From Flavobacterium sp. UBA6135 (GTDB taxonomy: Bacteria > Bacteroidota > Bacteroidia > Flavobacteriales > Flavobacteriaceae): a stretch of DNA of 64,000 bases. Below the pieces are notes generated by a model. That model had not been told where the DNA came from, did no database searches, and saw only the letters and a program-made list of their open reading frames with translations. The translations under genes and the position numbers were made by a program. Shown here piece by piece: positions 45,810 to 55,168 of this stretch. The stretch covers positions 108,489 through 172,488 of the forward strand of contig NZ_DIVJ01000023.1 in NCBI RefSeq assembly GCF_002428305.1, read 5' to 3'. The first letter of the stretch is position 1. Each line of letters starts with the position of its first letter.

Positions 45810-46382
45810 TTAAACACCAAAAACACTTTCAATCTCCATAACTTCTCCCGATTGCAAATTATCTAAATGGAAGTTTCCAATTCGAACTCGAACCAATCGC
45901 AAAGTGGGGAAACCTACAGCAGAAGTCATTTTTCGCACTTGTCTAAACTTTCCTTCAGTAAGTGTAATGGAAACCCAAGAAGTGGGTCCGTGTCGTTCAT
46001 CACGAATTTTTTGGATACGCAATGGAAGATTTGGAGCGTCAATTAATTTAGCTTGACATTTTTTGGTTTTGTATTTGGTTCCTTTAAAACCAATTAAAAC
46101 ACCGTTTTGAAGTTGGTCAACGGCTTCTTGAGTGAAAATACCATCCACTTGAGCATAATATTCTTTTTCCACTTTTTTGCTTCGCACCAATTCGCTCATC
46201 ATGCCATCTGTGGTAAGAATGAGTAGGCCTTCTGAATCTTCGTCCAAACGACCAATTGCCATAGTTCCAGGAGGAAAATCGTATAATTCTCCCAATAACT
46301 TTTTGGTCCGCTTTAGCTCATAGATAAACTGACTAAGGTAGCCGTAGGGTTTGTGAATTAAGAAGTGACGGTGGTTTGTCAT
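45810..46382 (-). CDS. Pseudouridine synthase, RluE-like (start MTNHRHF; track extends to 46421)
   Basis: HKPYGYLSQF, GRLDEDSEGLL, EG.FRQVRKMT. Confidence 0.9.
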   Translation of the reverse strand: MTNHRHFLIHKPYGYLSQFIYELKRTKKLLGELYDFPPGTMAIGRLDEDSEGLLILTTDGMMSELVRSKKVEKEYYAQVDGIFTQEAVDQLQNGVLIGFKGTKYKTKKCQAKLIDAPNLPLRIQKIRDERHGPTSWVSITLTEGKFRQVRKMTSAVGFPTLRLVRVRIGNFHLDNLQSGEVMEIESVFGV

Positions 46383-46459
46383 GCTTTTATGAGTTGGCAT
46401 TCGCCATTTTTCAGTTTTCATTCACAGTTGGTAGATTTTGACATACAACTTTAAACTCC

Positions 46460-46660
46460 CAGATTTAGTTTCTAGACCCTTAATTCACTACTAAACAGGG
46501 ACTTCCTTAAATCAAAAAAGCCATTCACCAAAAGGTGAAAAGCTTTTCATTGGTCTAACTACTAAACCGAGACTTCCTTACGGTCGTCCAAAACAACACA
46601 ACTATTTTAAATGCCTCACTGAACTTTTATTTTAATGTGTGTTCGGCGAATGCATAGCAT
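46460..46660 (-). ncRNA. Candidate small RNA(s) with a tandem 23-nt motif and an internal terminator
   Basis: 46487-46509 and 46558-46580 are 21/23 identical; terminator-like hairpin at 46514-46547. Confidence 0.45.
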
Positions 46661-46674
46661 TTGCTTTTTTGGGC

Positions 46675-46704
46675 AAAAAAGCGATTCATTTCTGAATCGC
46701 TTTT
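46675..46704 (-). terminator. tRNA-Asp terminator
   Basis: GCGATTCA/TGAATCGC stem with A/T tracts on both sides. Confidence 0.8.
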
Positions 46705-46714
46705 CCCAATTTAG

Positions 46715-46788
46715 CGGTCTGGACGGGACTCGAACCCGCGACCCCATGCGTGACAGGCATGTATTCTAACCAACTGAACTACCAAACC
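46715..46788 (-). tRNA. tRNA-Asp, anticodon GTC
   Basis: Acceptor GGTTTGG/CCAGACC, anticodon arm CATGC-CTGTCAC-GCATG, GGTTCGAGTCC; TATATTTG promoter at 46807-46814 (minus strand). Confidence 0.97.
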
Positions 46789-53952: not shown

Positions 53953-54327
53953 TTAGTATCTTCCTCCTCCGCCACCGCGACTGTTTCCACCTCCGCTGTA
54001 GCCACCGCCACCACGACTGTTTCCACCACCACCGTAACCACCACCGCCTGAACGGTTGCTGTTAAAGCTTTTTCTTTCACCTTCCGGTTTTGGCTCTGAT
54101 TTATTTACAACGATAGCACGTCCTTGAACAGTAGCTCCGTTTAATTCGTCAATTGCTTTCTGACCTTCTTCGTCATTTGGCATTTCAACAAAACCAAACC
54201 CTTTACTTCTTCCAGTAAATTTATCAGTTACAACTTTTACAGAATCAACTGCACCATAAGCCTCAAAAGACTCTCTTAAATCTGCTTCCTCAATACTCCA
54301 AGGAAGACTTCCAACAAAAATATTCAT
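53953..54327 (-). CDS. Single-RRM RNA-binding protein with Gly-rich tail
   Basis: RNP2 IFVGSL, RNP1 KGFGFVEM; TACCTTTG promoter at 54350-54357. Confidence 0.95.
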   Translation of the reverse strand: MNIFVGSLPWSIEEADLRESFEAYGAVDSVKVVTDKFTGRSKGFGFVEMPNDEEGQKAIDELNGATVQGRAIVVNKSEPKPEGERKSFNSNRSGGGGYGGGGNSRGGGGYSGGGNSRGGGGGRY

Positions 54328-55111: not shown

Positions 55112-55168
55112 TATATTTGCACCCTTAATTAACAGAGGTCGAGAACCTCAAAATTTAATCACAAGATT
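55112..55168 (+). promoter_or_regulatory. rpsP promoter plus leader hairpin (candidate ribosomal-protein leader)
   Basis: TATATTTG at 55112-55119; GAGGT-CGAGA-ACCTC hairpin at 55135-55149. Confidence 0.6.

What the first reader, a model, noticed from the sequence alone, without database searches (positions are those of the whole stretch)
46460..46660. Tandem-motif small-RNA candidate downstream of tRNA-Asp carrying GUUUAGUAGU twice
Seen: about 290 bp of non-coding DNA. On the minus strand, UAAGGAAGUCUCGGUUUAGUAGU and UAAGGAAGUCCCUGUUUAGUAGU (21/23 identical, 71 nt apart) are separated by a terminator-like hairpin. In each unit the variable bases can pair with unit-specific downstream sequence (GUCU...AGAC; CCCU...AGGG), leaving UUUAGUAGU in a loop, which resembles compensatory change. 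An upstream imperfect stem (CCGAAC-ACACA/UGUGUUGUUUUGG) is also present. Established: (G/A)U1-3AGU is the binding consensus of Musashi-type RRMs, and Bacteroides RRM protein RbpB binds a family of paralogous sRNAs (FopS). Inference: paralogous sRNAs or an RRM-protein sponge; an RRM gene lies at 53953.
Basis: partly seen in the sequence, partly recalled or inferred. Interest (0 to 1): 0.65.

Follow-up and report, generated by a model that had tools for sequence, protein, structure and literature searches.

The report
Flavobacterial small RNA beside tRNA-Asp
The first copy of the repeated motif lies inside an undescribed ~89-base small RNA found across the Flavobacteriaceae, usually just after tRNA-Asp, whose invariant 5' end GUUGUGUUG is complementary to CA-rich leaders of the PNPase gene and of purine and pyrimidine synthesis genes.

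Summary
Two 23-nt copies (21/23 identical, 71 nt apart) flank a terminator downstream of tRNA-Asp, and an RRM gene lies at 53953.

The interpretation mostly fails. Copy 1 is part of a conserved ~89-nt RNA (window 46514-46602, minus strand) with four parts:
- a single-stranded 5' GUUGUGUUG, invariant in 57/57 aligned copies
- a variable hairpin, compensatory at 6/6 pairs
- a second hairpin, GGUUUA-GUAGU-UAGACC
- an intrinsic terminator

The RNA occurs in 35/36 genomes of the genus, in at least 139/300 Flavobacteriaceae genera, and almost never in other families. It has no Rfam match. tRNA-Asp lies just upstream in 106/114 copies. Five stand-alone copies carry a TAnnTTTG promoter box placing the start at the first G.

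The complement, (A)CAACACAAC, sits just upstream of the start codons of pnp, purF, purL, purC, purA, purB, purH, pyrD, pyrG, carA, carB, rpiB and rpe in several genera.

Best reading: a trans-acting, GcvB-like base-pairing RNA acting on PNPase and nucleotide synthesis.

Copy 2 is a structureless partial duplicate confined to a small clade.

The parts
46714..46788 (-). tRNA-Asp (anticodon GTC), with no encoded CCA. It is the upstream neighbour of the small RNA in most genomes.
   Evidence: ARAGORN and Rfam tRNA at 66.4 bits. tRNA-Asp lies on the same strand within 260 nt upstream of 106 of 114 copies, at a median of 63 nt.
46671..46707 (-). Long hairpin with a U-tract directly after the tRNA (GGGAAAAGCGAUUCA-GAAA-UGAAUCGCUUUUUUGCCC). 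It is either the tRNA terminator or a processing hairpin.
   Evidence: Perfect 12-nt inverted repeat I4, also seen in the fold. The same hairpin sits between tRNA-Asp and the RNA in many genera. It is absent in L048, where the RNA starts 10 nt after the tRNA.
46605..46670 (-). Species-specific spacer of about 65 nt between the tRNA hairpin and the small RNA.
   Evidence: Most of the genus lacks this spacer, including the close relative L260. The Rfam PyrR hit is 34 bits against a gathering score of 54. Part of the spacer recurs elsewhere in G030, G035 and G021.
46594..46602 (-). Seed: GUUGUGUUG, single-stranded, at the inferred 5' end of the small RNA.
   Evidence: Invariant in 26/26 and 57/57 aligned copies. 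Unpaired in the minimum-energy fold. Five stand-alone copies have TAnnTTTG plus 4 nt directly before the first G.
46570..46589 (-). Hairpin 1 (GGACGACC-GUAA-GGAAGUCU). Its sequence varies between species but it is always a hairpin.
   Evidence: 6 of 6 model pairs show compensatory changes, with all four Watson-Crick pair types; 92.5% of cells are paired. Also present in the minimum-energy fold.
46552..46568 (-). Hairpin 2 (GGUUUA-GUAGU-UAGACC). It resembles the 5' end of tRNA-Asp (GGUUUGGUAGUU).
   Evidence: 99.7% of cells are paired; 2 pairs have compensatory changes (UA to CG) and UA/UG alternate at one pair. It is absent in the short-form homologues of G084, G075 and G061.
46514..46548 (-). 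Intrinsic terminator of the small RNA (AAAAGCUUUUCACC-UUUU-GGUGAAUGGCUUUUUU), preceded by the conserved AAUG.
   Evidence: Terminator scan. 4 pairs have compensatory changes and 96% of cells are paired.
46558..46580 (-). It equals the 3' arm of hairpin 1 plus the 5' arm and loop of hairpin 2.
46487..46509 (-). It is a partial duplicate lying just after the terminator, without seed or terminator.
   Evidence: Repeat D1. The region has no significant fold (z = 0.17). It is absent in L006. Related second units occur only in L260 and L198.
46464..46478 (+). Inverted, degenerate copy of hairpin 2 (TTTAGTTTCTAGACC), downstream of unit 2.
   Evidence: Inverted repeat I2, 80% complementary to 46552-46566.
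45810..46421 (-). Downstream gene for a pseudouridine synthase. This is context only; the downstream neighbour differs in relatives.
   Evidence: Pfam PseudoU_synth_2, E = 3.8e-21. Downstream genes differ among the loci.
53953..54327 (-). RRM-domain RNA-binding protein with a Gly-rich tail. This is context only; no link to the RNA was shown.
   Evidence: Pfam RRM_1, E = 1.3e-22. Sequence.

Best explanation
Window 46514-46602 (minus strand) encodes a trans-acting, base-pairing small RNA of about 89 nt that is specific to the Flavobacteriaceae.

**Anatomy (shown).**
- An invariant, unpaired 5' GUUGUGUUG(UUU).
- A hairpin of free sequence.
- A second hairpin, GGUUUA-GUAGU-UAGACC.
- An intrinsic terminator.

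**Expression (inferred).**
- In most genomes the RNA follows tRNA-Asp and is probably made by read-through or co-transcription, then freed by processing of the tRNA 3' trailer.
- In some genera it has its own sigma-A-type promoter. That promoter puts the transcription start exactly at the first G, so the seed sits at the extreme 5' end.

**Action (inferred from complementarity and its conservation).**
- The seed pairs with CA-rich boxes, (A)CAACACAAC, in very short 5' UTRs, usually 1-35 nt (up to about 55 nt in pnp leaders) before the start codon.
- The most widespread predicted target is the pnp (PNPase) leader, where the box lies in the loop of a conserved hairpin.
- In Flavobacterium and several other genera the boxes extend to purF, purL, purC, purK, purA, purB, purH, pyrD, pyrG, carA, carB, folD, rpiB and rpe.
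- Because these bacteria initiate translation on unstructured A-rich leaders rather than Shine-Dalgarno sites, pairing there should block 30S binding and repress translation. This is how GcvB acts on CA-rich enhancers in gamma-proteobacteria.
- Linkage to a tRNA operon would tie repression of de novo nucleotide synthesis to growth-rate-controlled tRNA transcription. This last step is speculative.

**Copy 2 and origin.**
- The 3' part of the RNA itself probably descends from a duplicated tRNA-Asp unit.
For: **Conservation and structure.**
- BLAST-level matches in 35/36 genomes of the genus.
- The covariance model hits 139/300 genera of the family with strict filters. Only one borderline hit appears among roughly 175 genomes of other families in the order.
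- 57 copies: 96.1% of cells paired against 59% with slid partners; 12 pairs with double changes; hairpin 1 compensatory at 6/6 pairs.
- The minimum-energy fold of the window RNA equals the comparative model, z = -4.27, with the seed unpaired.
- No Rfam family matches.

**5' end.**
- L063, G084, G075, G061 and the metagenome locus L580 all read TAnnTTTG-NNNN-GUUGUGUUG.
- The box spans -12 to -5 in Flavobacterium psychrophilum (PMC9723704).

**Targets in the window's own genome.**
- Seed-duplex ranking of 2645 crude ORF starts puts rpiB 1st, purL 2nd, purF 4th, pnp 5th, pyrD 6th, pyrG 11th, folD 14th, purK 18th and rpe 37th.
- Protein names were confirmed with NCBIfam.

**Targets in other genera.**
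- In G079, 10 of 13 occurrences of ACAACACAAC lie 2-30 nt upstream of the start codons of carA, carB, purA, purB, purH, purF, serC, rpe and pnp. Two more are the small-RNA genes themselves, read on the opposite strand.
- G254 has the box before pnp, pyrD, pyrG and purF. G087 has it before pyrG, pnp and purL. G299 has it before purC. G219 has it before pyrG and pnp. G292 has it before pnp.

**Cross-check back into the window's genome.**
- The G000 orthologues of the seven genes found only in G079 or G299 rank 18, 51, 69, 108, 115, 328 and 590 of 2645.
- By my own binomial arithmetic, five of seven falling in the top 4.4% has probability of about 3e-6, assuming independence.

**pnp leader.**
- CAACACAAC is present in 27/30 genomes of 21 genera.
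- The one seed variant found (G074, GUUGUGUGU) co-occurs with ACACACAAC in its pnp leader.

**Parallel with GcvB.**
- GcvB targets carry AACACAAC(AT), and its seed contains AUGUUGUGUU (PMC5900567).
- There is a weak anti-GcvB (AgvB) hit on the opposite strand.
Against:
- In the one Flavobacterium transcriptome atlas in the library, no Rfp RNA has this sequence. The transcribed stretch after one tRNA-Asp gene is only 32 nt. That suggests the intervening hairpin can terminate efficiently. It is unknown whether that species carries the RNA.
- Most copies have no recognisable promoter of their own.
- A whole-genome repeat in a distant genus (G196) recovered only pnp (4th) and an aspartate aminotransferase (16th), not pur or pyr genes.
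- Six of the ten genera first scored as lacking the RNA turned out to have divergent or variant-seed copies, yet they have no CA box at purF, purL or rpiB. The nucleotide regulon is therefore lineage-limited, and my first co-occurrence test was flawed.
- The 10-mer is not over-represented genome-wide relative to its reversed control.
- CA-rich leaders could be general translation enhancers.
- ORF starts were called crudely.
- The direction of regulation is not shown.
Confidence: 0.6

Rival explanations
1. Cis-acting tail of the tRNA-Asp transcription unit. On this reading the element is a processing or termination module, or merely a decayed duplicate tRNA-Asp with its terminator, and has no trans-acting role.
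For: - tRNA-Asp lies directly upstream in 106/114 copies.
- Most copies have no promoter of their own.
- Hairpin 2 matches tRNA-Asp positions 1-12 at 11/12. The 3' part aligns to the tRNA 3' part plus terminator, score 45.5 against shuffles of 19.8 (sd 3.4).
- Pseudo-tRNA-Asp remnants occur at the same loci (L172, L245).
Against: - A 9-nt single-stranded block is invariant in every copy retrieved at strict thresholds (57/57 aligned, from about 29 genera), while the adjacent hairpin varies freely.
- Stand-alone copies exist far from any tRNA, with a promoter that starts at the seed.
- Matching CA boxes occur at functionally coherent genes.
Confidence: 0.12
2. The CA box is primarily a protein-recognised element, and the RNA's complementarity to it is secondary or coincidental. 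The box could be a DNA operator just downstream of the promoter in nucleotide-synthesis genes, or an RNA site for a translational enhancer or repressor protein. On this reading GTTGTGTTG at the RNA gene is the same operator in the opposite orientation.
For: - The boxes lie between the -7 promoter box and the start codon, for example TACTTTTG-cacgta-CAACACAAC at purL. That is a typical repressor position.
- No purine repressor is known to me in this family (my own knowledge).
- Some genera have the RNA but no box at the pur genes.
Against: - The boxes are always CA on the sense strand and vary in length, register and repeat number. This is like pairing sites and unlike dyad operators.
- In pnp the box sits in the loop of an RNA hairpin whose stem co-varies.
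- tRNA-linked copies of the RNA have no promoter for an operator to act on.
- The same seed and box pair is an experimentally proven RNA-RNA interaction in GcvB.
Confidence: 0.1
3. One reading: two paralogous small RNAs, or a sponge, presenting GUUUAGUAGU loops to an RRM (Musashi- or RbpB-like) protein.
For: - The motif occurs twice.
- The GUAGU loop of hairpin 2 is invariant in the genus.
- A second GGUUUAGUAGU unit, with its own terminator in L260, exists in two related species.
- An RRM protein is encoded 7.4 kb away.
- RbpB binds 5'-seed small RNAs in Bacteroides (PMC11697453).
Against: - GGUUUA is stem, not loop.
- The proposed unit-specific pairings are contradicted by relatives.
- Unit 2 has no fold, no seed and no terminator, and is not conserved.
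- Hairpin 2 is missing in the short-form homologues and its loop varies in other genera.
- There are only two copies in the genome.
Confidence: 0.08
4. PyrR-type transcription attenuator. A PyrR-binding hairpin in the spacer would control the terminator at 46515-46548.
For: - Rfam PyrR hit at 46511-46641, 34 bits, E = 0.0067, with AGUUCAGUGAGGCA resembling the PyrR loop.
- The predicted targets include pyr genes.
Against: - The hit is below the gathering score of 54, and most of the score comes from the terminator.
- The spacer carrying the hairpin is missing in most of the genus and in the closest relative L260.
- The downstream gene is a pseudouridine synthase, and the downstream neighbour is not conserved.
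- The presence of pyrR in the genome was not checked.
Confidence: 0.02

Closest known systems
GcvB (Rfam RF00022), the Hfq-dependent small RNA of Enterobacteria and Pasteurellaceae
   Same: - It has a G/U-rich single-stranded seed containing GUUGUGUU.
- Its target sites are CA-rich (AACACAAC) and lie at or just upstream of ribosome-binding regions of many biosynthetic mRNAs. purC is among the Pasteurella multocida targets (PMC5900567).
- The predicted outcome is translational repression of a metabolic regulon.
   Different: - There is no sequence or structure homology (no Rfam hit).
- This RNA is about 89 nt with a 5'-terminal seed, against about 200 nt with an internal R1 region.
- It occurs in a phylum without Hfq (my own knowledge).
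- It is linked to tRNA-Asp rather than placed divergently from gcvA.
- Its predicted regulon is PNPase plus nucleotide synthesis, not amino-acid transport and synthesis.
- The resemblance is therefore convergent.
FopS/GibS small RNAs of Bacteroides thetaiotaomicron (RbpB-associated)
   Same: - It is a Bacteroidota trans-acting small RNA with a single-stranded 5' seed followed by hairpins and an intrinsic terminator.
- It acts at the start-codon region of mRNAs that lack Shine-Dalgarno sites (PMC11697453).
   Different: - Sequence, seed and targets differ (susC and PUL genes).
- FopS is a 14-member multicopy family, whereas this RNA is one to a few copies per genome.
- The FopS model in Rfam gives no hit here.
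- RbpB binding was not tested.
tRNA 3' external-transcribed-spacer RNAs such as E. coli 3'ETS-leuZ
   Same: It lies in the 3' trailer of a tRNA gene. It may be released by tRNA-processing nucleases from a growth-rate-controlled precursor.
   Different: - 3'ETS-leuZ is a sponge for other small RNAs (my own knowledge). Here an mRNA regulon is predicted.
- This RNA has its own terminator, and usually a hairpin with a U-tract separates it from the tRNA.
- Some genera give it an independent promoter.
Rfp small RNAs of Flavobacterium psychrophilum (Rfp18 and others; PMC9723704)
   Same: They come from the same genus. Some of them (Rfp11, 13, 15, 18) are conserved beyond the species.
   Different: None of the listed Rfp sequences contains the seed or hairpin 2.

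Membership tests
Any Rfam 15 family | cmscan score at or above the family's gathering score | tested here: not met
   Only the tRNA matches in this region. The best other hit is PyrR at 34 bits against 54. Short-form homologues and pnp leaders also give nothing.
GcvB | G/U-rich seed complementary to CA-rich (AACACAAC) target sites | tested here: met
   The seed GUUGUGUUG is invariant. The GcvB consensus was read in PMC5900567.
GcvB | Homologous sequence and structure (about 200 nt, R1 and R2 regions, five stem-loops) | tested here: not met
   There is no RF00022 hit even at E up to 10. The RNA is 89 nt with three hairpins.
GcvB | Hfq dependence and a gcvA-adjacent locus | not tested
   The neighbours here are tRNA-Asp and a pseudouridine synthase. 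Hfq was not searched for.
FopS/GibS | Match to the FopS consensus (5' R1' seed, Rfam model) | tested here: not met
   There is no Rfam hit. The FopS query sequence quoted is unrelated.
FopS/GibS | Bound by the RRM protein RbpB | not testable with these tools
   An RRM_1 protein is encoded in the window, but binding needs CLIP or EMSA.
Trans-acting base-pairing small RNA (generic) | Discrete transcript with a defined 5' end and an intrinsic terminator | tested here: inconclusive
   The terminator co-varies. Promoter spacing in 5 stand-alone copies puts the start at the seed.
Trans-acting base-pairing small RNA (generic) | Conserved unpaired seed with conserved complementary sites in functionally related mRNAs | tested here: met
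tRNA 3'-trailer-derived RNA (3'ETS type) | Located in the 3' trailer of a tRNA gene on the same strand | tested here: met
   106/114 copies, at a median of 63 nt after tRNA-Asp. The gap is 10 nt in L048.
tRNA 3'-trailer-derived RNA (3'ETS type) | Co-transcribed with the tRNA and released by processing | not testable with these tools
   This needs RNA 5'-end mapping. A hairpin with a U-tract usually intervenes. In F. psychrophilum the transcribed stretch after one tRNA-Asp gene is 32 nt.
PyrR binding site (RF00515) | Gathering score, plus conservation of the binding hairpin | tested here: not met
   34 bits against 54. The hairpin-bearing spacer is absent in most relatives.

The most novel reading that the evidence does not exclude
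A small RNA born from a duplicated tRNA-Asp unit, and still transcribed with tRNA-Asp, is the master post-transcriptional regulator of PNPase and of de novo purine and pyrimidine synthesis across much of the Flavobacteriaceae. It would be a convergent counterpart of GcvB in a phylum without Hfq. It would use a 5'-terminal GUUGUGUUG seed against CA-rich, Shine-Dalgarno-less leaders, and so couple nucleotide supply to tRNA-operon (growth-rate) transcription.
Probability: 0.4. Interest if true: 0.85.

Novelty: new member of a known kind. Interest (0 to 1): 0.7.

Why it matters
Regulation by small RNAs in Bacteroidota is known from a handful of Bacteroides examples. I know of no family-wide 'core' small RNA with a coherent regulon described for the Flavobacteriaceae, and none surfaced in the searches here. 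This family includes fish pathogens, plant-associated species and major marine polysaccharide degraders.

How these bacteria control purine and pyrimidine synthesis is largely unknown. This locus offers a concrete, testable regulator together with its binding sites.

The locus would also provide three further things:
- A clear case of convergent evolution of the GcvB seed and CA-box logic without Hfq.
- An example of a regulatory RNA arising from a tRNA gene duplicate.
- A new conserved pnp leader element.

The covariance model and the CA-box signature can be used at once to annotate hundreds of genomes.

Tried and rejected
- **PyrR attenuator.** The score is sub-threshold, and the spacer that carries the hairpin is not conserved.
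Both are contradicted by relatives and by the minimum-energy folds.
- **Dispersed motif family.** There are only two copies in the genome.
- **Small ORF.** An ORF starting at the conserved AAUG (MKSF...) was rejected. The stem co-varies at the RNA level, and the AUG is lost in L058 and L060.
- **'TAGTTGTG' as the -7 promoter box.** Rejected because the TA is not conserved while GUUGUGUUG is, and because spacing to the upstream TTG varies.
- **Co-occurrence test (sRNA-positive against sRNA-negative genera).** Leader duplex energies were about -11 to -12 against -5.6 to -5.9 kcal/mol for purF and purL, with a weaker gap for rpiB (-8.3 in other sRNA-positive genera). The 'negative' set was later shown to contain divergent copies, so the result shows lineage-limited targeting, not presence versus absence.
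- **Whole-genome repeat in G196.** It recovered only pnp and an aspartate aminotransferase.
- **Genome-wide counts of the 10-mer.** Not above the reversed control.
- **Metagenome scan for promoter-to-seed spacing.** Mostly unrelated matches, with one true copy, again at a 4-nt gap.
- **Literature.** Searches by sequence and by topic found no earlier description.
Full report
**1. The observation**

On the minus strand, tRNA-Asp(GTC) lies at 46714-46788. It is followed by a long hairpin with a U-tract at 46671-46707. About 290 nt of non-coding DNA then runs to a pseudouridine-synthase ORF starting at 46421.

The 23-mers at 46558-46580 and 46487-46509 are 21/23 identical and 71 nt apart. The core pattern has 2 matches where shuffles give 0.02. 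It occurs nowhere else in the 3.0-Mb genome. A terminator lies between the two copies. The gene at 53953-54327 encodes an RRM_1 protein.

**2. What the first copy belongs to**

A BLAST of the intergenic region against relatives showed that only a block of about 100 nt is conserved. That block is present in 35 of 36 genomes of the genus. It contains copy 1 and the terminator, but not copy 2.

Twenty-six distinct sequences align to a common plan:
- an invariant (U)AGUUGUGUUGUUU
- a hairpin whose sequence differs from species to species
- an invariant GGUUUAGUAGUUAGACC
- AAUGAAAAGC and an intrinsic terminator

A covariance model (R1) found the RNA in 139 of 300 genera of the same family under the strict filters. 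Among roughly 175 genomes from other families of the order there was one borderline hit. Named records show the genus is Flavobacterium. Other carriers include Myroides, Avrilella, Kordia, Sinomicrobium and Ascidiimonas.

A second model with all three helices (R2) aligned 57 copies. The pair counts were as follows:
- 96.1% of cells form pairs, against 59% when partners are slid by one column.
- 12 pairs show changes on both sides.
- Hairpin 1 is compensatory at 6/6 pairs, using all four Watson-Crick types.
- Hairpin 2 has two compensatory pairs, and the terminator has four.

One caveat applies: the alignment was fitted to the model. However, the window RNA folded on its own gives exactly this structure, with nucleotides 1-13 unpaired (z = -4.27).

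Nothing in Rfam 15 matches.

GUCU pairs upstream with GGAC, AGACC pairs with GGUUU, and only GUAGU is loop.

**3. Where the RNA starts and how it is made**

tRNA-Asp lies on the same strand within 260 nt upstream of 106 of 114 copies, at a median of 63 nt. Usually the U-tract hairpin lies between them. In L048 the RNA begins only 10 nt after the tRNA, which leaves no room for a promoter. This argues for co-transcription or read-through followed by processing.

Five copies that are not tRNA-linked all read TAnnTTTG-NNNN-GUUGUGUUG. They are L063, G084, G075, G061 and the metagenome locus L580. In F. psychrophilum the sigma-A box TAnnTTTG spans -12 to -5 (PMC9723704). This spacing therefore puts +1 on the first G of the seed. 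I infer that the mature RNA carries the invariant 9-mer at its extreme 5' end.

G084, G075 and G061 have a short form made of the seed, one hairpin, and CCAAUGAAAGGC with the terminator. Hairpin 2 is missing.

**4. What it probably does**

The complement of the seed is CAACACAAC.

*In the window's own genome.* Six of the 39 occurrences lie within 50 nt upstream of long ORFs. That places it second among the 126 permutations of the 9-mer, despite one of the lowest total counts. RNAduplex of the 13-nt 5' end was run against positions -45 to +6 of 2645 crude ORF starts (mean -5.5, sd 2.2 kcal/mol). The ranking was:

| Rank | Gene |
|---|---|
| 1 | rpiB |
| 2 | purL |
| 4 | purF |
| 5 | pnp |
| 6 | pyrD |
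| 8 | fbp |
| 10 | gap |
| 11 | pyrG |
| 14 | folD |
| 17 | aspartate aminotransferase |
| 18 | purK |
| 34 | gcvP |
| 37 | rpe |

With a 16-nt seed, carA, carB and gmk also appear (gmk was named from its N-terminus only). Protein identities were confirmed with NCBIfam. The boxes lie downstream of the -7 promoter box and 2-45 nt before the ATG, so they are inside very short 5' UTRs.

*Independent check in other genera.* All occurrences of ACAACACAAC were listed in six genomes and the flanks inspected.
- In G079, 10 of 13 occurrences precede the start codons of carA, carB, purA, purB, purH, purF, serC, rpe and pnp. Two more are the RNA genes themselves read on the other strand, and one is inside an ORF.
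- G254 has the box before pnp, pyrD, pyrG and purF.
- G087 has it before pyrG, pnp and purL.
- G299 has it before purC, G219 before pyrG and pnp, and G292 before pnp.
- Names were confirmed. The purF and purL assignments rest on the orthologue searches and leader sequences.

*Back-test in G000.* The orthologues of the seven genes found only in G079 or G299 rank 18, 51, 69, 108, 115, 328 and 590 of 2645. By my own arithmetic the binomial probability of five in the top 4.4% is about 3e-6, assuming independence.

*The pnp leader.* This is the most widely conserved site. 27 of 30 genomes from 21 genera have CAACACAAC in a long CA-rich loop. The loop is closed by a co-varying stem (UUUUCAUUGGGU...ACCCAUUGUUUAAUUAA) in the rpsO-pnp spacer. 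The single seed variant I met (G074, GUUGUGUGU) co-occurs with ACACACAAC in its pnp leader. This is suggestive only, because that 9-mer also occurs in standard leaders.

*Precedent.* GcvB uses a G/U-rich seed containing AUGUUGUGUU against AACACAAC(AT) boxes at or near ribosome-binding regions (PMC5900567). This also explains the faint AgvB hit on the plus strand.

I therefore propose translational repression by occlusion of Shine-Dalgarno-less leaders. Pairing is inferred. The sign of regulation is inferred from position only.

**5. Limits of the target argument**

My first co-occurrence test compared leader energies of purF, purL and rpiB across three groups:

| Group | purF | purL | rpiB |
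|---|---|---|---|
| Same genus | -11.7 | -11.9 | -11.5 |
| Other genera scored as carrying the RNA | -11.8 | -10.8 | -8.3 |
| Genera scored as lacking it | -5.6 | -5.8 | -5.9 |

A permissive re-search then showed that several 'lacking' genera carry divergent copies. The correct statement is that pnp is the common site, and that pur, pyr and pentose-phosphate leaders were recruited in a subset of genera that includes Flavobacterium.

A whole-genome scan of the distant genus G196 recovered pnp (4th) and an aspartate aminotransferase (16th), but no pur or pyr genes.

The 10-mer is not enriched genome-wide over its reversed control. The signal is in where the sites lie.

There is no expression evidence. 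None of the Rfp RNAs of F. psychrophilum has this sequence. The transcribed stretch after one tRNA-Asp gene there is only 32 nt, and it is unknown whether that species carries the RNA.

**6. The second copy and the origin of the motif**

Copy 2 follows the terminator directly. It has no seed and no terminator, and it folds no better than shuffles (z = 0.17). It is missing in the 94%-identical relative L006.

Two related species have a second unit after the RNA (L260, whose tRNA region is 100% identical, and L198). It consists of GGUUUAGUAGU, then the hairpin CUCGUUGU(G/U)AACAACGAG, then AUGAAAAGC. In L260 a copy of the same terminator follows. Copy 2 is therefore a partial tandem duplicate confined to a small clade, and it is decaying in the window's species.

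The motif itself resembles the 5' end of tRNA-Asp: GGUUUGGUAGUU against GGUUUAGUAGUU, 11/12. The 3' part of the RNA aligns with the tRNA 3' part plus its terminator (score 45.5; shuffles 19.8, sd 3.4). Pseudo-tRNA-Asp remnants and tandem tRNA-Asp/RNA modules are common at these loci. I infer that the RNA's 3' module descends from a duplicated tRNA-Asp unit.

**7. Comparison with known systems, and verdict**

The RNA works like GcvB in seed and target logic. It is built like the Bacteroides 5'-seed RNAs (FopS/GibS). It sits like a tRNA 3'-trailer RNA. It is a member of none of these, as the membership table shows.

Literature searches by sequence and by topic found no earlier description.

- The gene is a new family of a known kind.
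- My confidence that it is a real, structured RNA gene is about 0.9.
- My confidence that it pairs with the CA boxes is about 0.65.
- My confidence in the whole statement, including repression, is about 0.6.

Noticed in passing
L442-L471 (rpsO-pnp spacers of 30 genomes); in the window's genome, contig C35 just upstream of 40978: The pnp leader carries a conserved hairpin (UUUUCAUUGGGU...ACCCAUUGUUUAAUUAA) with a 25-35-nt CA-rich loop, (ACAAC)n ending in CAACACAAC. It is present in 27/30 Flavobacteriaceae genomes and has no Rfam match. The S15-Flavobacteria leader lies just upstream.
   Followed up: partly
L260:870-960 and L198 (close relatives of the window's species): A second terminated unit follows the small RNA. 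It reads GGUUUAGUAGU, then the hairpin CUCGUUGU(G/U)AACAACGAG (a seed-like GUUGUG paired with its complement), then AUGAAAAGC and a terminator.
   Followed up: partly
window 46620-46660 (-): About 40 nt of the species-specific spacer (gcattcgccgaacacacattaaaataaaagttcagtgagg) matches three sites about 1.8 kb apart in G030 contig C7, and single sites in G035 and G021. It may be a small repeated element of unknown nature.
   Followed up: no
L172, L245 (downstream of the small RNA): Degenerate tRNA-Asp pseudogenes (5' half intact, body replaced) sit directly after the small-RNA terminator. Many genomes have tandem tRNA-Asp/small-RNA modules, and G168 has six copies.
   Followed up: no
window 55128-55159 (+): S16-Flavobacteria ribosomal-protein leader (Rfam RF03138), just above its gathering score (39.1 against 35.7 bits).
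   Followed up: no
L021 (G030:C8), upstream of the small RNA's terminator side: A short ORF-like stretch lies next to the tRNA-Asp/small-RNA module.
   Followed up: no
G000 contigs C10:29632-30846 (-) and C12:16397-16897 (-): A 405-aa signal-peptide protein and a 167-aa membrane protein, both without family matches, also carry exact CAACACAAC boxes 3 and 10 nt (box end to ATG) before their start codons.
   Followed up: no
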